From positions 8,131-72,130 of the forward strand of contig CAYWDM010000004.1 of NCBI GenBank assembly GCA_964457085.1: DNA of 64,000 nucleotides, written 5' to 3'. The position numbers were made by a program, and so were the translations under genes. Positions 32,059 to 60,863 of the stretch are shown in pieces. Origin of the DNA: an uncultured Pseudomonadales bacterium (GTDB taxonomy: Bacteria; Patescibacteriota; Microgenomatia; UBA1400; PJMF01). Numbering within the stretch: position 1 is the first letter of the stretch; each line of letters begins with the position of its first letter. The notes under the pieces were generated by a model. The model was given only the letters and a program-made list of their open reading frames with translations. It did not search any database and had not been told where the DNA came from.

Positions 32059-33876
32059 TCAAATTTTAGATTTGGTCTGCAACAGCACTATTTTCTGCAG
32101 TAACTGAGTCATCTCCAATTCCTCTTCGTCTGTTTTTTGGGCCTTTGAATCCAACTGTTTGATTCTTTGATTCAACACACCCAATTCTCCCTGTGTGACC
32201 ACTTTTTTCAATTCTCCAAACAGTAGCTGCCATTGATTCTCGTTCATTACATCCATCTGACTATTTGGATCAAGTATCCAGTCAAAGACCAATGAAACTA
32301 AATCACTTGGCCAAGATTTGGTGATGATTTTTAAATCCAAATCTGATGACACAGTTGCCAACCGCTTTAGAATTTCTTGTGCCCCAACTGTTTCCAAAAC
32401 GACGGATCGCAGTTGTACCACTCTATTTTGACGAAATTCACTATTTGCCAGACATGCAGCCACCAACGCACGTTCCAACTGAGAACGATGTGATTCTCGG
32501 TTTACATCTGTCTTCTGAGGTTGGGTGTTTTGGGTAGTTCCGGATGGAATTGCGGGAGCGGCATTTTTTTGTTTATTGCCGGATCCATATCTAAATTTCT
32601 CGATGTCTTTTTTGACCAAATCTAATCGTACGTTTAATGCACTTGATAATTTTTGCAGATAAAAATCTTGTTCGACTGCGTGTGCGATTCCACCAAAAAC
32701 AGGTGACAAAAAATCAATAATTTGACGCTTACCCTCTGGCGTTGTTGGATCATATTTACGTAACGCCGCTTGCAACAAAAATTCATATACTGAAACAGTT
32801 TTTGATGACAGCTCACGCCATAGTTTTGGAGTTTCTCGAGCAATCTCATCCGGATCTTTTTGACCAGTCCGTTCTTTAGCTGCAAAATCAATGACTCGAA
32901 GTTCTAAGTTATGTTTAGCGACAACTCCGATTGCTTTCAAAGTAGCATTAATACCTGCCTCATCGGCATCCAAAGCTAAAACAACCTGTTCTGCATATCG
33001 CTCTAACAGTTTTGCCTGTTGCTCGGTTAAAGCCGAACCTTTAATTGCGACTACAGCGTTCACATGAGCCTGAGCAGATGATATGACATCAAACTCACCT
33101 TCAACAACCAAAACCCGCTTCTCTTGTTTGATCGCCTGGAATAGCTCGCTCAAACCAAAAAGCATTTCTGATTTGTGATACAGCATTGTCTCTGGGGAAT
33201 TAATATATTTTGCTTCTTTTTCATCTGGACTCAGAGTACGTCCAGAAAATCCTAGTACCTGCCCACGATGGTTTTTGAGTGGAAACATGACTCGATCTCT
33301 AAAACGATCGTAATATCTGCCACCCTTACCTTGAATTGCTAAACCCGCTTTTTCAATATCCACCAAAGAGTATTTTTTCTTGCCATGCAGATATTTCACT
33401 AATCCATCCCAGCCAGGCATCGCATAACCCACTTGAAAAATCTTGACTGATTGCCCAGAAACATGTCTTTGTTTGAGGTATGCTCGAGCCTTTTCTCCTG
33501 CACTGTGCTCAGTCAATAAATAGTGAAAGTATTCCTTAGATAAATTTAAAATCTCCAGTAATCGATCTCTTTCATCATCTGCACTGCTGCGTTGAAAATC
33601 TTGGAGTGTTATCCCAACTCGCTCTGCAAGATACTTGAGTGCTTCAGCAAAGGTCATCCGGTCATACTCTTCCAAAAAACCGATCACATCGCCACTAGCA
33701 CCGCAACCAAAGCAACGATATCGCTGTAGTTGTTCACTCACAAAAAACGAGGGACTTTTTTCACTATGAAACGGGCAATTTGCCCTAAAGTTAACACCAG
33801 ACCGAGTGAGTGGCACTCGTTCTGTAATAATCTCGATGATATTGGTGGCCTCTTTGACCTGTTGAATCTGAGACAT
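32059..33876 (-). CDS. dnaG: DNA primase
   Basis: CPFHSEKSPSF zinc ribbon, TOPRIM region (VVEGEFD, LALDADEAG), C-terminal helicase-interaction domain. Confidence 0.9.
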   Translation of the reverse strand: MSQIQQVKEATNIIEIITERVPLTRSGVNFRANCPFHSEKSPSFFVSEQLQRYRCFGCGASGDVIGFLEEYDRMTFAEALKYLAERVGITLQDFQRSSADDERDRLLEILNLSKEYFHYLLTEHSAGEKARAYLKQRHVSGQSVKIFQVGYAMPGWDGLVKYLHGKKKYSLVDIEKAGLAIQGKGGRYYDRFRDRVMFPLKNHRGQVLGFSGRTLSPDEKEAKYINSPETMLYHKSEMLFGLSELFQAIKQEKRVLVVEGEFDVISSAQAHVNAVVAIKGSALTEQQAKLLERYAEQVVLALDADEAGINATLKAIGVVAKHNLELRVIDFAAKERTGQKDPDEIARETPKLWRELSSKTVSVYEFLLQAALRKYDPTTPEGKRQIIDFLSPVFGGIAHAVEQDFYLQKLSSALNVRLDLVKKDIEKFRYGSGNKQKNAAPAIPSGTTQNTQPQKTDVNRESHRSQLERALVAACLANSEFRQNRVVQLRSVVLETVGAQEILKRLATVSSDLDLKIITKSWPSDLVSLVFDWILDPNSQMDVMNENQWQLLFGELKKVVTQGELGVLNQRIKQLDSKAQKTDEEELEMTQLLQKIVLLQTKSKI

Positions 33877-37698: not shown

Positions 37699-39522
37699 TC
37701 ATCTGACCGTAACTGATTTTGCAAGATTACGTGGTTTGTCTGAGTCAATACCTTTTAGTATTGAAACTTCATACGCTAATAACTGTCCAAACACTGCAGA
37801 TAGAATTACATTTCCTACGCCAAAATCTGGATGATTAAAGTATTGGCTCGGCCATGTATTTGTATCTGTTACTAGGCCAACACTATTGCCTTGGCGTGCG
37901 GATATTTCCATCGCATTTGTTAAATCAAGTGCAAAAGTCTGTTGATTTGTAGCCAAACACAAACACTCTGTTCCATTTTCTACTAATGCCAAAACACCAT
38001 GTTTCAACTCTCCAGCAGAAAAACCCTCCGCATGTACATATGCTGCCTCTTTTAGCTTCAATGCTGTTTCCAGTGCAATTGGATACAGAGTCTCTCTACC
38101 CAATACAAAAAAATGATCCTTTTTTGAAATACGTAGACACCAGGCTTTGAATTCCACAGACTTCGGTAACTCAACTACTAGTTTTTGAATATATTTTGCC
38201 GTCGCCGTTAGGTGACCGTTTGTAGCAGCGGCACTTTTTTTATTTGCCATTTTGCCTGCTAGTAGTTGCAGACAACACAGTTGTGCCACAAAACTCTTGC
38301 TAGCGACTACAGCTTGTTCAACTCCTGCCATGATTGAAACTGAGATTTTAGCAAACTCCGACAAACTAGAGTTAGGTTTATTTACCAAACAATAATAACT
38401 AATACCGTTGTTTTTAAGCCACTCTGTATGTATCAAAATATCTGCTGTTTCACCACTTTGAGAAATAAAAATCACACTCCCCTCAGCTGGTATGTGATTT
38501 CTCCATGTCAAAAACTCGTTAGCTGAAAAAGCATATGTTTGACGACCGTTAGCAGTCATAACTTGAGCACCATACAACGCAGCATGGTATGCAGAGCCAC
38601 AACCAACGAGATAAACAACAGGGCCAAGTGATCTTGCAAGTTTCTCCAGATTGTTTTTTGTATTGGAACCATACGCGTGTATTAAAGCAAGCAATACAGC
38701 CGACGAATCAGCAATTTCTTTTTGAAAAAAATGTGAATATGTGCCAATATCCGTATCTGTTTTCACTAAACTCAGTGTGTGCCATTCAAGATCAATAGGT
38801 GTTAAATCAGTGACGTTATATGTCAGCTGGGTTTTTTTTGTAAAAAATAGCAGCGTATTCTCAGGAATAGTCGCATATTTTTTAACTTTACCAATTAATG
38901 CCATCAGATCACTGACTACAAATTTTTGTTGTGCTGACTGTGCAAAAAGTAACGGTGAACCGTGACGAACAGCTAGGCAACTTTTGGACTCTGCATCAAT
39001 GATTACCACCGCGTTGCTGCCAGATAATTTCAGAAAAACGGTCTGGAGTGTTTCAATCAAAAGTTGATCAGTGTTGACTGGTAATCTCAGCTTAGATTGA
39101 TTGACTACATTTTTCCTAAACTCCAACTCAAATAATCCTAAAATAACTTCTGTATCTGTCTGTGACTTAAACAGATATTTTTTATCAAGAAGTTGCTTTT
39201 TAAGCTCAAGAAAATTCTCGACTACACCGTTGTGAACTAAGGCAAATCTGCCATCACTTGATATATGAGGATGAGCATTTTCGGCAGTTACACCGCCATG
39301 TGTTGCCCAACGAGTGTGTCCCAACGCAATTGAGCTGGTGGTGTTCTTGTCGAGTTTTGCAGCACCAATTTTACCAACCTGTTTTTTAACCTGACATTTT
39401 TCCTCGCTAGCCCAAGCCACACCCCAACTGTCGTATCCCCGGTATTCCATTTCTTTGAGTGCTGTTAATGCTTGAGTTGGAGCATTAATATTTTCTTCGA
39501 TTAATCCGATGACACCGCACAT
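37699..39522 (-). CDS. glmS: glutamine--fructose-6-phosphate aminotransferase (isomerising)
   Basis: MCGVIG N-terminal nucleophile Cys, GATase-2 domain, two SIS domains, C-terminal ...VTVR. Confidence 0.9.
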   Translation of the reverse strand: MCGVIGLIEENINAPTQALTALKEMEYRGYDSWGVAWASEEKCQVKKQVGKIGAAKLDKNTTSSIALGHTRWATHGGVTAENAHPHISSDGRFALVHNGVVENFLELKKQLLDKKYLFKSQTDTEVILGLFELEFRKNVVNQSKLRLPVNTDQLLIETLQTVFLKLSGSNAVVIIDAESKSCLAVRHGSPLLFAQSAQQKFVVSDLMALIGKVKKYATIPENTLLFFTKKTQLTYNVTDLTPIDLEWHTLSLVKTDTDIGTYSHFFQKEIADSSAVLLALIHAYGSNTKNNLEKLARSLGPVVYLVGCGSAYHAALYGAQVMTANGRQTYAFSANEFLTWRNHIPAEGSVIFISQSGETADILIHTEWLKNNGISYYCLVNKPNSSLSEFAKISVSIMAGVEQAVVASKSFVAQLCCLQLLAGKMANKKSAAATNGHLTATAKYIQKLVVELPKSVEFKAWCLRISKKDHFFVLGRETLYPIALETALKLKEAAYVHAEGFSAGELKHGVLALVENGTECLCLATNQQTFALDLTNAMEISARQGNSVGLVTDTNTWPSQYFNHPDFGVGNVILSAVFGQLLAYEVSILKGIDSDKPRNLAKSVTVR

Positions 39523-56508: not shown

Positions 56509-59500
56509 TTGATTGCTGACACTACCCATGATGTACTACTTGATATGGCATTGTCCGAGCAAATTTTGCACTCAAAACAGCAAGTTAAACAATATGCTGT
56601 TGGAGGTATTAGCCAGTTAAGTCAAATTATCGATGCAGGGGGCCATCTAGACACAACAAGGCCAGATAAACTATCGCAAATTGCTGCTGAAACCAAGCAA
56701 TTCATCTCAGAATACCTTGAAAATGAATCACTCCCAGTGTCGATGAGAAGTGAGGTGTTGTGTGTGCTTAAAACACTGTTGACTATTCCAGCACCCGCTG
56801 ATCAGGTTGCCTACTTACAGAGAATTAGACCGCTACTTGAGGAAGCAGCTGGCAATGAAGTATTGTCAAACAGAAAAAAAGAAGCTGAGAATATCAAGGT
56901 ACATGAGGCAATCACTGGTCTTGAGAATTCAGGACAAAACAGTGAGTATTGCATGATACCACTGATGAATTTCTTAAGTGACACAAAGCGACAAAAACAA
57001 ATTGAACCGTTTGTGACTGACAGTCTGGATACCTGCCTGGAAAAAGAACATGCGACGGCTGCTGCCATTTTTCTAGCTATTCCAGAAAATCAAGTAGGCA
57101 GAGACAAAGAAGTGGCACAATTGCTCGAGACAATCAAAAAAAACAAAAAACGTGCTGAAGACCTTCGCCTATCACCATGGTGGACATACGCAGCCCTGGT
57201 TTTTTTCGCAGATGAAAGAAACAGAAACTTGGATAGTGCACTATTTTCAGACACTGTGGACAGCATTGACGAAACGTGTGAGCGAAAACAACTTGATGAG
57301 AAACTCTCTGAACATATCTGTGCATTTTTGGTACAGAACACCAATATGGAACAATTTTCCCGGTGGTTTGATGCAGTTATTCAAACAAGCTCTGCTTACT
57401 GGGTTGTTCCCAACAATTTTTTTAACCATCCCGATGCCTGGAATGGAAACGAACAGATAGCGATTGAGTTGAGAAAAAAAGCTATTGCAGGTAATCAATG
57501 GGGTGTGTTGATTCAACAATGCACCAATCCGAAAGTTCCAAAGCCGGGAACAGTTGCAGGTGAAGAACAATACGAAAGCAATATCATGGACGAGATTGTT
57601 CGTGATGAGATACGAGGAAGACACGGTAACGTAAATGACGCAGTCATACTGAGATACATGGCACATCCCGAACACCATGTGGATATCTATGATCAGGATA
57701 CTGTCAATCAAACAATAGCTGCAAATCTAGAGGGTGGCACAGATACTGACTATATGGCAGTTGTAGATTTTTTTAATGAATCAAATGTCCAAAACTTTTC
57801 ATCAGCCACAACTGATATGGCAAATAAGGTGGTCAATCGAATCTCTGACCATATGCTCCGTGCCAAATCGCTCGGTTTGCTCAGAACGTATCTAACTGAT
57901 GAAACCTTACCAACTACACTACTAGAAAGTGTGCCCGCAGATTTAGTCATTACGGTCGTGGCATTTAAGCTACTCGGAGTTGACGAAAATGTAGTCAGAT
58001 CTTGGCAACTTGATGAGGAAAACATTACTTCACTTTTACCCAGCCTAATTCACTTAGCCGAGATGCCTGCAAATAGAAACATGTTTGCCGACATTGCTCT
58101 TCCATTCGTGCCTAGAACCAGAGAAAGTGGCAGAAAAGTATTGGTCGAAAAAATAACTCAATGGCTCAATAAATTAGATTTTTTGAATAAAGTTCCCAAG
58201 GAACTTGGTGGTAAAGAACTGGTTGAGGATCACTTAGAGAACATTAAGACATTGCAAAAAGAGCACGCTATCTCTGACGCAACTAACACCATTGATCTCA
58301 CGGTTTTAAGAAAGTTTCAAACAGAGTTGCAGAGCATGGGGGGTCAGTTAGTTGAGAAACTCACTCAACTCATCAGACTTAAAGAAGGCATCTCATACGC
58401 ACAGGTTGAGCAGTTCATTAAGGACTGGAATGGCGATATTTCCTGCGTCATCATCCTCTCCGCCCATTACAGCACCAGCTATGACGATGGTTTGACGTAC
58501 TTAGGACAAAAAATCACCGAAATAATTGAGGGTCAGGCAGAGTCGAATAGATATGATCTCTCCAATCAACTCACCAAACAACAACTGCAACCATTACTGC
58601 GAAACCCAGAAGTAATTGAGCAGGAAAAAGCCATAGCAGTCTGGAAAGATCCAGCGTATAGTTTGAAAATTGAATCAAGCCAAGTAAAAAAAGCTGCTGT
58701 ATCAGACTATGATCTGACACAAAAAGTGTCCGCAGAACTCCGACAAAGAGTTACCACCCAAGGACATTTTCACGCAGAAAAACTGCAAGAATTAATCGTC
58801 GGAAGTACCAGTGTAGAACAAGCCCAAAAGATTACCCAATTGATTACGGCATGTGTCCAAATAAATACTGAACAACCAAAAAACCTCATTGGACAAGTAG
58901 TGCAAGAACTCAAGCAATCATCACTAAGTAAAGAGCGCCAAACACTAATAATGGGTTTGGCACAATTACTACGCGAGATATCCCTTGGAAGAGAGAGCGC
59001 TTCAAATCTAGCCAACACTGCACAAAAACTTGTTGCCAAAATAACGAATGAATGGCCGGAACTAGCAGAAATTGACCTGATTAATCAAGACCTCAAAGTC
59101 TACGTCACCAACGAGTTTGATGCTGCTGATAAAGAATCTGCGCAAGTATCTCGCGCAGAACTATTTGTGTGCTACACCACGGATAATCCCAAGACTCTTC
59201 TGGAAATTGGCCGTTATCCAAACTCCGGTTCATGTCAAAATTATGAGTCGACTGGAAGCTACAACACGGGTTTGCCAGGCTATGTGTTCGATGCGCACAT
59301 CCAAGCAGCATGCATCTCAAGCGTGACACTCCCCGATGTTCTACAAAATAATCCTGAAGCATTAACCAACGCTTCCCTGTCTGACGTAGATCTTAACCTC
59401 GGCACAGCGCAGCTGCGACTCGAAAGTGGTAAAACATTCGCTGTGAAGATATCCAAGCCAATCGCCCGCAAGATGATACTTTTAGCATCCTCAACAAATA

Positions 59501-59781
59501 ACGAGCGTGCAGACATGCCAACTCTACTGGCAGAACCAACATATGCCGACCCAGGAGTAGCAGATGCAACTATTGAGCAGACATTGGAAGATACTATAAC
59601 TGCAAAAAGGAGCGCCCTCTCCAAACAACTTGGACTACCAGTTCTAGGAAATACTGATGCCAAATCAGGTGGCTATATGACAACAATCGCCGGCAGTCAC
59701 AACCCAAATGGTCACTATAATGACCTTGCATTTGGCTTACGTGGTGACAATGGTGAGAAATACGAAATTTCGCTTAAATAA
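56509..59781 (+). CDS. large orphan protein (1090 aa), no recognisable domain
   Basis: Single uninterrupted ORF with protein-like composition, no TM or signal peptide and no motif I can assign; bounded by repeat copies B and C. Confidence 0.6.
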   Translation: MIADTTHDVLLDMALSEQILHSKQQVKQYAVGGISQLSQIIDAGGHLDTTRPDKLSQIAAETKQFISEYLENESLPVSMRSEVLCVLKTLLTIPAPADQVAYLQRIRPLLEEAAGNEVLSNRKKEAENIKVHEAITGLENSGQNSEYCMIPLMNFLSDTKRQKQIEPFVTDSLDTCLEKEHATAAAIFLAIPENQVGRDKEVAQLLETIKKNKKRAEDLRLSPWWTYAALVFFADERNRNLDSALFSDTVDSIDETCERKQLDEKLSEHICAFLVQNTNMEQFSRWFDAVIQTSSAYWVVPNNFFNHPDAWNGNEQIAIELRKKAIAGNQWGVLIQQCTNPKVPKPGTVAGEEQYESNIMDEIVRDEIRGRHGNVNDAVILRYMAHPEHHVDIYDQDTVNQTIAANLEGGTDTDYMAVVDFFNESNVQNFSSATTDMANKVVNRISDHMLRAKSLGLLRTYLTDETLPTTLLESVPADLVITVVAFKLLGVDENVVRSWQLDEENITSLLPSLIHLAEMPANRNMFADIALPFVPRTRESGRKVLVEKITQWLNKLDFLNKVPKELGGKELVEDHLENIKTLQKEHAISDATNTIDLTVLRKFQTELQSMGGQLVEKLTQLIRLKEGISYAQVEQFIKDWNGDISCVIILSAHYSTSYDDGLTYLGQKITEIIEGQAESNRYDLSNQLTKQQLQPLLRNPEVIEQEKAIAVWKDPAYSLKIESSQVKKAAVSDYDLTQKVSAELRQRVTTQGHFHAEKLQELIVGSTSVEQAQKITQLITACVQINTEQPKNLIGQVVQELKQSSLSKERQTLIMGLAQLLREISLGRESASNLANTAQKLVAKITNEWPELAEIDLINQDLKVYVTNEFDAADKESAQVSRAELFVCYTTDNPKTLLEIGRYPNSGSCQNYESTGSYNTGLPGYVFDAHIQAACISSVTLPDVLQNNPEALTNASLSDVDLNLGTAQLRLESGKTFAVKISKPIARKMILLASSTNNERADMPTLLAEPTYADPGVADATIEQTLEDTITAKRSALSKQLGLPVLGNTDAKSGGYMTTIAGSHNPNGHYNDLAFGLRGDNGEKYEISLK

Positions 59782-59842: not shown

Positions 59843-60292
59843 CTATGTCTGTGGAGCAGGTGCCAATATTGCCTTAAAATGAATTGTCAGCACCTCAATT
59901 AACTCATCTACCGTAGACACTTTATCCTCAGCAACCAACAACGTCAAATCAGATGATATTTCTTCGGTGAAAACATAGCCATTATTAAGCAAAAAAGTGC
60001 CCATCAGAATGACTGACATTCTTTTGTTACCATTAAAGAAAGCCTGTCCTTGAGCAATTAGTACGTAATAACAAACTGCAGTCTGGATGCAATCATATGA
60101 CAGCATCTCTGATCTATTGCGAACAGATCCAAGAATAGATTCAAGCGTGCCTTGATACCGAGAAGTAAATGGAGGGAGGGGCTCAACTTCTGAAGTTTGA
60201 AGCTGCAGAAACTTTCTGAATCTCTCGTAGATACTCTCGCACTCTTGGATATTTAACCATGTCCACTGACTTTTGAATTTCACCTCTGTCAT
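59843..60292 (-). CDS. Doc/Fic-family (death-on-curing-like) protein with non-canonical Fic motif (Q instead of H)
   Basis: VLIAQGQAFFNGNKRMSVILMGTFLLNNG aligns with the Doc core IAKNHPFVDGNKRTALAAALVFLYLNG, but the catalytic His of HxFx(D/N)GNKR is replaced by Gln. Confidence 0.65.
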   Translation of the reverse strand: MTEVKFKSQWTWLNIQECESIYERFRKFLQLQTSEVEPLPPFTSRYQGTLESILGSVRNRSEMLSYDCIQTAVCYYVLIAQGQAFFNGNKRMSVILMGTFLLNNGYVFTEEISSDLTLLVAEDKVSTVDELIEVLTIHFKAILAPAPQT

Positions 60293-60431
60293 ATGAGTCT
60301 AATTCCAGCAATGTTTTGGCGTGTTTAGTCATCACAGCATCGGCATTACATTCGATATTACTTCGCTTGTGGACTGTGAATAGATTTCGAAGAATAGTTA
60401 GTAATTTTTTCATTATTTTCAATAGTTCCAA
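60183..60431 (-). CDS. small ORF upstream of / overlapping the Doc-like gene (possible antitoxin)
   Basis: 82-aa ORF whose last ~36 codons overlap the Doc-like start in another frame; basic alpha-helical N-terminus. Assigned by position only. Confidence 0.25.
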   Translation of the reverse strand: MELLKIMKKLLTILRNLFTVHKRSNIECNADAVMTKHAKTLLELDSYDRGEIQKSVDMVKYPRVREYLREIQKVSAASNFRS

Positions 60432-60863
60432 AGTGTGGTTGGAACTTTATTTTTTAGTATAGCTGTTTAACCAACATCTATACAACTCATATTGAGTTTG
60501 TTGGTGAATATGTGCTGTTTATTATATCAAAAGCAATCATTTTAATTAAAAATACAATAAATTTCATGGAAGGAAAGAGAGGCGCCTGCGGTGCATTAGG
60601 CAGGTGTTTTGTAGTTCCACACCCAACCAATAAAATAAATTCACTCGCCGGCAGGACTCTTCAATGGCTTCACCTCAACCTCGCCATCAGTTCTGCCCTC
60701 CTGCTCCGCTACGCGAAGCGAGCGGTTAGAGCGGAAGGAGAGGGACTTACCTTTCCAGGCTCAAATTTTAAATATTAGATTGGTATTCGCTTGGTGAGGT
60801 ACCATGCTTTCTCGTCCATTTCATACTGTTTTCCAACACCTGCTCCGCAGGATTGAAAAACAG

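What the first reader, a model, noticed from the sequence alone, without database searches (positions are those of the whole stretch)
59843..60431. Doc/Fic-like toxin with Gln replacing the catalytic His, plus overlapping upstream small ORF
The Fic motif is conserved except for the first residue (QAFFNGNKR instead of H.F.[DN]GNKR). The His is the catalytic base in Fic/Doc enzymes. A Gln variant may be inactive, use altered chemistry, or serve as a decoy. An 82-aa ORF overlaps its start by ~110 nt in another frame, an unusual arrangement for a Phd-Doc pair.
Basis: partly seen in the sequence, partly recalled or inferred. Interest (0 to 1): 0.55.

Follow-up and report, generated by a model that had tools for sequence, protein, structure and literature searches.

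The report
Split Doc gene pair, Gln active site
This is a real two-gene cassette: a small helical protein and a Doc-type enzyme domain whose catalytic histidine is a conserved glutamine. The two genes share 110 bases read in different frames, and comparison with relatives shows both readings are under selection, which is rarely this well supported in bacteria.

Summary
ORF 59843-60292(-) folds as a Doc domain. Gln83 sits exactly where phage P1 Doc has its catalytic His66, and the rest of the motif (NGNKR) is intact. The sequence is identical in independent assemblies.

Gln is invariant in a monophyletic clade of about 23 sequence clusters, and both Gln codons are used. A His-to-Gln Doc clade ("D2") was already described in silico in 2015. 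The window belongs to a second, independent Gln lineage.

The upstream ORF is a real gene (best start ATG 60413, 76 aa). In all 14 related loci examined, Gln- and His-type alike, it overlaps the Doc start by 77-119 nt out of frame. Both frames stay open, the overlap has no wobble-like codon position, and no conserved RNA structure explains this.

Read in series, the two ORFs are collinear with the C-terminal ~200 residues of single-chain RhuM/Fic/DOC proteins (PADLOC candidate defence family PDC-S23). The locus is therefore an N-terminally truncated, split relative of that family, with a dual-coding junction.

The biochemical role of the Gln is unknown. Retention of the partner and of the phosphate-binding residues argues for function rather than decay.

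The parts
59843..60292 (-). Doc-fold protein, 149 aa (stop codon included in the coordinates). Its start ATG (60290-60292) lies inside the codons Tyr41-Asp42 (TATGAC) of the upstream gene.
   Evidence: Full-length relatives start at the same MT(E/K)xK. The AF2 model has pLDDT 91.7, and its best Foldseek hits are P1 Doc 3dd7/3k33 with target-normalised TM-score (TMt) ~0.8. Four relatives have no alternative in-frame start in codons 2-50.
60020..60046 (-). Active-site motif QAFFNGNKR (aa 83-91). Gln83 (CAG, 60044-60046) replaces the catalytic His.
   Evidence: The alignment to P1 Doc puts Gln83 at His66. Q83, N89, K90 and R91 are invariant in the clade. Both CAA and CAG are used across loci.
60183..60413 (-). 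Partner gene, 76 aa from ATG 60413 (82 aa if the TTG at 60431 is used). It is helical and carries the conserved motif (H/Y)xxTLxxL(E/D)xYD(K/R)GE.
   Evidence: It is conserved along its whole length in 14 loci, including the part before the overlap. A profile search finds 15 short unannotated homologs. 18 of 23 partners match PDC-S23 profiles just N-terminal of the Doc part. hhalign to a Legionella RhuM/Doc protein, residues 158-184, gives E 7.8e-4.
60183..60292 (-). A 110-nt dual-coding overlap. The partner frame is the Doc frame shifted by -1 nt.
   Evidence: The overlap is 77-119 nt in 14 of 14 loci. Given the Doc amino-acid sequence, the chance that the partner frame stays open is 0.003-0.10 per locus. 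Nucleotide identity at Doc codon positions 1/2/3 is 0.69/0.65/0.51 in the overlap, against wobble values of 0.32-0.35 elsewhere (bootstrap P<=0.0004). Doc Tyr22 is TAC in 14 of 14 loci, and partner Tyr41 is TAT in 14 of 14. RNAalifold finds no conserved RNA structure.
60424..60446 (.). Perfect inverted repeat AGTTCCAA-N7-TTGGAACT immediately upstream of the partner ATG. It is a possible operator or hairpin, and its membership in the module is uncertain.
   Evidence: Found. It is not conserved in related loci.

Best explanation
**What it is.** The locus is a small, horizontally mobile two-gene cassette. It descends from, or shares an ancestor with, single-chain RhuM/Fic/DOC proteins (PADLOC candidate defence family PDC-S23). 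It lacks the N-terminal RhuM domain, and what remains is split into two proteins.

- ORF1 (76 aa) corresponds to the helical segment that precedes the Doc core in the single-chain proteins.
- ORF2 (149 aa) is the Doc core.

**How the two genes overlap.** Doc translation starts at an ATG buried in ORF1. ORF1 then runs on for a further 110 nt (77-119 nt in relatives) in the -1 frame. Both readings are kept by selection.

- Shown: the 'YDxGE' stretch is ancestral in the ORF1 frame.
- Shown: the Doc alpha-1 helix is ancestral in the Doc frame.
- Inferred: the first ~10 Doc residues and the ORF1 tail arose by overprinting.

**How it probably works (inferred).** The two proteins associate as their counterparts do within one chain. 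ORF1 would act as the partner or regulator of the Doc domain, in an antitoxin-like role. The internal start site would tie Doc synthesis to ORF1 translation.

**The Gln variant.** In this clade the general-base His is fixed as Gln, while the D/N-G-N-K-R phosphate-binding residues are unchanged.

- Inferred: the protein still binds a nucleotide or phosphoryl donor and is functional.
- Inferred: it works either by chemistry that needs no His base (substrate-assisted transfer or hydrolysis) or by stoichiometric binding of its target.
For: **Doc fold and motif register.**

**Gln is a fixed clade feature.**
- 28 Gln against 66 His among 94 motif-bearing relatives; the closest relatives are all Gln.
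- The Gln clade is monophyletic in a neighbour-joining (NJ) tree, next to a His clade.
- Only three positions differ between the two clades: the His/Gln itself, the residue before it and the residue after it.
- Both Gln codons are used.

**The partner is real.**
- It is conserved outside the overlap and present in 14 of 14 loci, including the His-type sisters L145 and L146.
- An orphan copy in L144 keeps its tail even though the Doc frame is broken.

**Dual coding.**

**Collinearity with RhuM/Fic/DOC (PDC-S23).**
- Doc matches profile positions 179-303 and the partner matches 121-184 of the same model.
- 18 of 23 partners and 17 of 22 Docs hit PDC-S23.
- Virtual fusions match as one stretch, and score 12-14 bits higher when the partner frame is read first.
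- A single tblastn piece spans both parts in Legionella and Vibrio RhuM/Fic/DOC genes. Those genes are PDC-S23 at about 1e-130 and have a RhuM+Fic architecture.
- The MAFFT alignment has one 3-residue gap.

**Cassette-like behaviour.** Flanking genes vary between loci.

**Other Gln-Docs keep partners.** Canonical-size Gln-Docs elsewhere retain upstream partner genes, which argues that Gln-Docs still need a partner.
Against: - There is no expression, interaction or toxicity data.
- The partner has no recognisable antitoxin or DNA-binding domain. The first weak similarity to the Fic antitoxin BiaA did not hold with a larger profile.
- The window's own neighbours (a P-type ATPase and a 1090-aa protein of unknown function) are not defence genes.
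- The loci are phylogenetically related, so the per-locus probabilities are not fully independent.
- A Gln cannot act as a general base, so loss of catalysis remains possible.
Confidence: 0.6

Rival explanations
1. The Gln-Doc is a catalytically dead pseudoenzyme. It keeps the fold and the ligand- or target-binding surface and acts only by binding, for example as a decoy, a sequestering factor or a scaffold with its partner. The gene architecture is as in the best explanation.
For: Gln cannot abstract a proton, and in P1 Doc the H66Y mutant is the inactive form used for crystallography (3dd7). No new candidate base appears among the clade-specific residues.
Against: Q, N, K and R are all invariant. 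If only the fold mattered, the former catalytic position should drift. Gln was fixed independently in at least two Doc lineages (PMC4454073). The partner gene is retained.
Confidence: 0.25
2. The two ORFs are joined by programmed +1 ribosomal frameshifting within the first ~10 overlap codons. This would give one ~190-aa protein equivalent to the C-terminal two thirds of RhuM/Fic/DOC, possibly alongside the separate products.
For: Virtual fusions are collinear with PDC-S23 with almost no gap. Shift-prone CCC-N codons lie near the junction in 9 of 14 loci (sequences).
Against: - The window itself has no CCC or other slippery site there.
- The ATG is conserved in 14 of 14 loci, with a Doc-frame stop 2-5 codons upstream in 11 of 14.
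- The ORF1 frame stays open and conserved for 15-27 codons beyond the putative shift site, and Doc Trp12/Cys18/Tyr22 and the ORF1 residues are constrained together. A fusion does not need either feature.
Confidence: 0.1
3. The upstream ORF is a chance open frame or an annotation artefact, and only the Doc gene is real.
For: It has no family hit in Pfam, NCBIfam or PHROGs. Long same-strand overlaps in annotations are often errors.
Against: - Protein-level conservation includes the non-overlapping part.
- The frame is open in 14 of 14 loci, although the chance is 0.003-0.10 per locus.
- The overlap has no wobble-like position.
- The partner is homologous to the pre-Doc segment of RhuM/Fic/DOC proteins.
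Confidence: 0.03
4. The Gln codon is a sequencing error, or the gene is a decaying pseudogene.
For: Profile scores fall just under the curated thresholds. The public annotation calls only an 87-aa fragment.
Against: The sequence is identical in independent assemblies. Gln is invariant in ~23 clusters that share less than 50% identity, and both Gln codons are used. The ORF is intact and gives a high-confidence fold. The 87-aa call is a gene-caller response to the overlap.
Confidence: 0.01

Closest known systems
RhuM/Fic/DOC family proteins, which are PADLOC 'phage defence candidate' PDC-S23. Examples: Legionella adelaidensis WP_058462840, L. pneumophila WP_070322510, Vibrio nigripulchritudo WP_225911901. 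RhuM-DOC fusions were noted by Anantharaman et al. 2013 (PMC3710099), and BifA of S. zooepidemicus is a RhuM+Fic protein (PMC6529018).
   Same: The partner followed by Doc is collinear with the C-terminal ~200 residues of these proteins. Shared motifs are YxxT(F/L)xxLxxYDxG..P, the alpha-1 helix, the LF/ILG segment and xxFxDGNKR.
   Different: The known proteins are one ~330-aa chain with an N-terminal HTH/RhuM domain and a His in the motif. Here the N-terminal domain is absent, the rest is split into two ORFs with an out-of-frame 110-nt overlap, and the His is Gln. Whether PDC-S23 itself protects against phage is not documented in the papers I could read. Protection was shown for a member of the RhuM-only family PDC-S05 (PMC12881386).
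Doc clade D2 of Khater & Mohanty 2015 (Sci Rep 5:10804, PMC4454073): Doc proteins with Qx[F/Y]x[D/E][G/V]NKR.
   Same: The catalytic His is replaced by Gln in a conserved clade of single-domain Doc proteins, and the function is unknown. The authors also argued that such proteins are probably not dead.
   Different: The window's motif has Asn at position 5. Its clade groups apart from the canonical-size 'ESQAFLDGNKR' Gln-Docs and next to a His clade. It has a different N-terminus and a different, overlapping partner, whereas D2-type genes have ordinary upstream partners with 4-nt ATGA overlaps. The two are therefore independent His-to-Gln events.
Phd-Doc type II toxin-antitoxin module of phage P1 (Doc is an EF-Tu Thr382 kinase; review PMC4177925).
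   Same: Both have the six-helix Doc fold, the xxFx(D/N)(A/G)NKR motif, a small gene immediately upstream on the same strand, and cassette-like variable genomic neighbourhoods.
   Different: The His is missing. The partner is not Phd/YefM-like. The gene overlap is 110 nt out of frame rather than a few bases. Profile scores fall just below the family cut-offs.
Established long overlapping (overprinted) gene pairs in bacteria (e.g. PMC4683798, PMC8850804).
   Same: Two proteins are read from one DNA stretch, and selection is visible on both frames.
   Different: Most described bacterial cases are antisense, young and restricted to one species. This one is same-strand, sits at the junction of two functionally linked genes, and is conserved across relatives with less than 40% protein identity, including a Paceibacterota genome.

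Membership tests
Doc / Fic-DOC (PF02661, TIGR01550) | Doc-type helical fold | tested here: met
   The AF2 model has pLDDT 91.7. The top Foldseek hits are P1 Doc 3dd7/3k33 (prob 1.00, TMt 0.73-0.81).
Doc / Fic-DOC (PF02661, TIGR01550) | Motif HxFx(D/N)(A/G)NKR with catalytic His | tested here: not met
   The sequence is QAFFNGNKR. Gln83 aligns with His66, and the other motif positions are met.
Doc / Fic-DOC (PF02661, TIGR01550) | Score at or above the curated profile cut-off | tested here: not met
   Pfam 23.3 against 24 bits, and TIGR01550 36.3 against 38.65 bits. Both are narrow misses.
Doc / Fic-DOC (PF02661, TIGR01550) | Kinase activity on EF-Tu, or toxicity | not testable with these tools
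   Needs biochemistry or expression assays.
Phd-Doc toxin-antitoxin module | Upstream Phd/YefM-type antitoxin | tested here: not met
   None of the 15-23 partner homologs has a Phd/YefM or any other Pfam hit.
Type II toxin-antitoxin cassette (generic) | Two small co-oriented adjacent genes that move together between unrelated neighbourhoods | tested here: met
   14 of 14 loci have the pair, and the flanking genes differ in every locus.
Type II toxin-antitoxin cassette (generic) | Toxicity of one product neutralised by binding of the other | not testable with these tools
Doc clade D2 (Khater & Mohanty 2015) | Motif Qx[F/Y]x[D/E][G/V]NKR and membership of that clade | tested here: not met
   Position 5 is Asn. 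The NJ tree places the window's clade apart from the ESQAFLDGNKR group. The partner type also differs. The tree was not bootstrapped.
RhuM/Fic/DOC (PADLOC PDC-S23) | Significant match to the PDC-S23 profiles | tested here: met
   Doc scores 7.7e-5 and the partner 5.5e-3. Virtual fusions score down to 4.7e-10 for the window and 8e-15 for L146. 18 of 23 partners and 17 of 22 Docs match.
RhuM/Fic/DOC (PADLOC PDC-S23) | Single ~330-aa polypeptide with an N-terminal Virulence_RhuM domain | tested here: not met
   There are two ORFs and no RhuM domain. Bona fide members have RhuM+Fic in one chain.
RhuM/Fic/DOC (PADLOC PDC-S23) | Location inside defence or R-M loci | tested here: not met
   The window's neighbours are a P-type ATPase and an unknown 1090-aa protein, with only one faint PADLOC hit nearby (DUF626_VIII, E 6e-4, on the 1090-aa protein). 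Only the immediate neighbours were examined.
Class I Fic antitoxins (VbhA/BiaA/FicA) | Inhibitory motif [S/T]xxxE[G/N] | tested here: not met
   The motif is absent from all 23 partner sequences.
Class I Fic antitoxins (VbhA/BiaA/FicA) | Sequence or profile similarity | tested here: inconclusive
   BiaA was the top hit at E 0.019 with a 15-sequence profile, but fell to E 0.22 with 23 sequences.

The most novel reading that the evidence does not exclude
The module would be a conserved, genuinely dual-coding gene pair. The toxin-like Doc domain is initiated from inside its partner's gene, which fixes their relative synthesis. The His-to-Gln switch, fixed independently in at least two Doc lineages, would mark a new Fic/Doc chemistry that does not need a general base. 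Candidates are substrate-assisted phosphoryl transfer, or NTP or phospho-protein hydrolysis with Gln positioning the nucleophile.
Probability: 0.2. Interest if true: 0.75.

Novelty: new variant of a known kind. Interest (0 to 1): 0.55.

Why it matters
- **Overlapping genes.** It gives a comparatively well-supported bacterial example of a long same-strand overlap in which both frames are under selection. It also shows how the overlap arose, at the junction of a split gene whose unsplit relatives still exist. Such cases are usually dismissed or destroyed by gene callers. Here every pipeline truncated one of the two genes.
- **The catalytic His in Fic/Doc enzymes.** The Gln clade and its His sister clade share the same partner and nearly all other conserved residues. 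That makes them a natural matched pair for asking what the catalytic His does, and what a Gln can do instead.
- **Link to candidate defence genes.** It connects a set of unannotated small proteins, found among others in candidate-phyla-radiation bacteria, to the RhuM/Fic/DOC candidate defence family.

Tried and rejected
- **Word-index protein search with the Doc ORF.** It returned only the organism's own truncated 87-aa call. The exhaustive search was needed.
- **Similarity of the partner to the Fic antitoxin BiaA.** It looked promising. It weakened with a larger profile, was matched by an equally good ribosomal protein bS20 hit, had no support from hhalign against VbhA, and the defining motif is absent. 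Rejected as evidence.
- **Structure prediction of the partner-Doc complex as a linker fusion.** The partner alone gives only a low-confidence helical model (pLDDT 72, pTM 0.36).
- **A conserved RNA structure as an alternative cause of nucleotide conservation in the overlap.** None was found.
- **A conserved operator upstream of the partner gene.** The window's 8-bp inverted repeat is not shared by relatives.
- **Phage or plasmid origin.** There were 2 weak viral hits and no plasmid copy of this subfamily.
- **Taxon of the window.** Not determined. The genome is absent from the representative-genome collection, the cluster look-up gave no names, and there were no Rfam hits.
- **Primary Doc kinase papers.** PMC3836179 and PMC3953291 are not held.
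- **PDC-S23 in the literature.** No paper describing it specifically was found.

Full report
**1. The observation.**

ORF 59843..60292(-) encodes 149 aa. ORF 60183..60431(-) encodes 82 aa from a TTG start. They overlap by 110 nt in different frames. The motif QAFFNGNKR lies at aa 83-91.

A sequence search of solved structures aligns AQGQAFFNGNKR with ARGHIFNDANKR of phage P1 Doc. Gln83 therefore stands at the position of His66. Profile matches are clear but narrowly sub-threshold: Pfam Fic scores 23.3 against 24 bits, TIGR01550 scores 36.3 against 38.65, and PHROG 577 'Doc-like toxin' matches at 9.5e-13.

An AlphaFold2 model built on 22 relatives is confident (pLDDT 91.7, pTM 0.86). Its best structural matches are P1 Doc entries. 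The DNA is identical in an independent Logan assembly, and an identical 149-aa protein was called on another contig.

The public annotation calls only an 87-aa C-terminal fragment plus the 82-aa upstream ORF. This is how gene callers handle the overlap. In related contigs they either do the same or keep the full Doc and drop the upstream gene.

**2. The Gln is a clade character.**

An exhaustive phmmer search found 101 representatives. The closest ~25 are full-length (~150 aa) and all carry Gln. More distant relatives carry His, for a total of 28 Gln and 66 His. In the Gln clade E51, Q83, N89, K90 and R91 are invariant.

A neighbour-joining tree makes the window's Gln group monophyletic. It sits beside a His group with the same N-terminal signature, MTxEKxPxPKxWL..C..IY. 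The two groups share nearly all conserved positions. They differ only at the His/Gln itself and its two neighbours, typically G-H-P against S-Q-A. CAA and CAG both encode the Gln across loci.

This phenomenon is already in the literature. Khater & Mohanty 2015 (PMC4454073) described Doc clade D2, 45 sequences with Qx[F/Y]x[D/E][G/V]NKR, and argued it is probably not dead. My scans recovered more than 100 such canonical-size 'ESQAFLDGNKR' Docs, mostly from Verrucomicrobiota, Planctomycetota, Acidobacteriota and Gaiellales. They have ordinary small upstream partner genes with ATGA 4-nt overlaps.

The window's clade differs from these in three ways:
- its motif has Asn at position 5;
- its N-terminus is different;
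- its partner is different, and it groups with a His clade that shares that partner.

So His-to-Gln has happened at least twice. The tree was not bootstrapped, and the partner argument is the stronger one.

**3. The upstream ORF is a real gene, and the overlap is dual-coding.**

I examined 14 distinct loci. Twelve are Gln-type, including two reached independently through the partner protein. Two are His-type sisters. In every one, the frame shifted by -1 nt is open from 64-87 codons upstream to 77-119 nt into Doc.

The encoded proteins align over their whole length. This includes the part before the overlap, with consensus (H/Y)xxTLxxL(E/D)xYD(K/R)GE(I/V)..P...A....R.Y(L/I)Q.L. The alignment indicates ATG 60413 as the start in the window.

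The Doc ATG always lies within the Tyr-Asp codons TATGAC. A Doc-frame stop lies 2-5 codons upstream in 11 of 14 loci. Four loci have no other in-frame start before the conserved LES motif.

Statistical tests:
- When synonymous codons are resampled with the Doc protein held fixed, the partner frame stays open over the first 25 codons in only 0.3-10% of trials per locus.
- The converse test gives 11-67%.
- Mean pairwise nucleotide identity at Doc codon positions 1/2/3 is 0.69/0.65/0.51 in the overlap. In single-coding parts it is 0.49/0.65/0.35 and 0.40/0.53/0.32. Neither frame therefore has a free wobble position in the overlap (bootstrap P<=0.0004).
- Doc Tyr22 is TAC in 14 of 14 loci (background 36% TAC). 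The C is the first base of the partner's Arg/Gln codon.
- The partner's Tyr41 is TAT in 14 of 14 loci, which is needed for the Doc ATG.
- RNAalifold finds no conserved structure in the region.

An orphan partner homolog (L144) keeps its tail although the Doc frame is broken and Doc is gone. The loci are related, so the per-locus probabilities cannot simply be multiplied. The signals are nevertheless consistent and come from sequences with less than 40-50% protein identity.

**4. What the pair is.**

The partner has no hit in Pfam, NCBIfam or PHROGs. A first weak match to the Fic antitoxin BiaA did not hold up.

The informative result came from PADLOC. The Doc ORF matches the 'phage defence candidate' PDC-S23 at profile positions 179-303 of 312. 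The partner matches the same models just upstream, at 121-184 of 312 and 137-208 of 327. Eighteen of 23 partners (best 1.3e-5) and 17 of 22 Gln-Docs (best 1.5e-7) do so.

Virtual in-frame fusions of partner and Doc match PDC-S23 as one continuous stretch. In three of three loci they score 12-14 bits higher when the partner frame is read through the first 14 or more overlap codons than when the Doc frame is read from its ATG. For the second half of the overlap the two frames score alike.

A tblastn search with such a fusion hits plasmid genes of Legionella and Vibrio in a single piece spanning both parts. These genes are annotated 'RhuM family protein' or 'virulence protein RhuM/Fic/DOC family protein'. 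They are PDC-S23 at about 1e-130 and have Virulence_RhuM (N-terminal) plus Fic domains.

The partner motif corresponds to 'NYTNTFILLNQYDTGNFPEGG' of the Legionella adelaidensis protein (hhalign E 7.8e-4). The Doc part aligns at hhalign probability 96%. A multiple alignment of fusions with the C-terminal ~200 residues of PDC-S23 needs only one 3-residue gap.

The cassette is therefore an N-terminally truncated, split relative of RhuM/Fic/DOC proteins. The 'YDxGE' segment is ancestral in the partner frame and the alpha-1 helix (from Trp12) is ancestral in the Doc frame. The first ~10 Doc residues and the partner's last ~15-27 residues look like overprinted additions that are now conserved.

From the literature:
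- RhuM-like domains are often fused to DOC and sit with restriction-modification and PrrC genes, and were proposed to be toxins in multilayer defence (PMC3710099).
- BifA of Streptococcus zooepidemicus is a RhuM+Fic protein whose His247 is needed for its effects (PMC6529018).
- A member of the RhuM-only family PDC-S05 protected E. coli against T4, T5 and T7 (PMC12881386).
- I found no experimental paper on PDC-S23 itself and no solved structure.

**5. Mechanism.**

Shown: two conserved proteins are encoded. The Doc start lies inside the partner gene. The Doc fold has an intact phosphate-binding half of the motif and a fixed Gln. The pair is homologous to one chain in other bacteria. The flanking genes vary between loci.

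Inferred:
- The two proteins associate as their counterparts do within one chain, and the partner acts as regulator or antitoxin-like subunit.
- The internal start couples or limits Doc synthesis relative to the partner.
- The Gln-Doc is functional, because Gln, Asn, Lys and Arg are invariant, the partner is retained, and Gln was fixed independently in another Doc lineage that also keeps its partners.
- What the Gln does cannot be decided here. Options are chemistry without a general base, or binding without turnover.

A programmed +1 frameshift that fuses the two ORFs is conceivable, since CCC-N codons lie near the junction in 9 of 14 loci. It is disfavoured for two reasons: the window lacks such a site, and the conserved ATG and the conserved partner tail would then be unexplained.

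**6. Novelty and verdict.**

Two elements are already known: Doc clades with Gln for His (in silico, 2015) and RhuM-DOC fusions/PDC-S23. Three elements are, as far as I could find, new:
- this second Gln lineage;
- its split architecture;
- the conserved 77-119-nt dual-coding junction with a previously unannotated partner family.

I rate it a new variant of a known kind, of moderate to fairly high interest. The main reasons are the well-supported overlapping-gene case and the natural His/Gln matched pair. Function remains untested.

Noticed in passing
window 60424-60446: There is a perfect 8-bp inverted repeat, AGTTCCAA-N7-TTGGAACT, immediately upstream of the partner ATG (60413). It covers the TTG at 60431 and is followed on the + strand by a T-run. 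It could be an operator or a hairpin. It is not conserved in related loci.
   Followed up: partly
L064, L066, L069, L143, L145 (30 nt upstream of the partner start): TATAAT-like boxes lie only 5-10 nt upstream of the partner gene's ATG in several relatives. This suggests leaderless or very short-leader transcripts.
   Followed up: no
P0073 (1546 aa), P0074 (1393 aa), P0089 (2801 aa); Giant proteins with 4-7 separate Doc-like stretches appear among the distant hits. They were not examined.
   Followed up: no
window 56509-59781 (+): A 1090-aa ORF with a TTG start converges on the Doc gene, leaving a 61-nt spacer. It has no credible hit in Pfam, NCBIfam or PADLOC.
   Followed up: partly
L144 4001-4228: A partner homolog stands alone. 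It has 'LD' instead of 'YD', so there is no Doc ATG, the Doc frame contains stops, and no Doc domain lies downstream. Its C-terminal tail is still conserved.
   Followed up: partly
L006 2219-2676: In this MAG the Gln-Doc is interrupted by frameshift(s). This is either a pseudogene or an assembly error. The overlapping partner is intact.
   Followed up: no
L007-L061, L070-L141: More than 100 canonical-size Doc proteins with ESQAFLDGNKR (Gln for His) were found, mostly in Verrucomicrobiota. Most have a ~60-70-aa upstream partner ending in ..LF(R/H)(R/K)LAQ with a 4-nt ATGA overlap. A minority have AbrB/SpoVT-type partners.
   Followed up: partly
window 59843-60431 and related contigs: Automatic gene callers resolve the overlap by truncating one gene. 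Here they call an 82-aa partner plus an 87-aa Doc fragment. Elsewhere they call the full Doc and no partner. Both families are therefore systematically mis-annotated in public data.
   Followed up: yes
window 1-64000: The window is chromosomal, since glmS (37699-39522) and dnaG (32059-33876) are present. Many ORFs have no family hit, nothing reaches an Rfam gathering threshold, and GC content is about 40%. The organism could not be named with the tools.
   Followed up: partly
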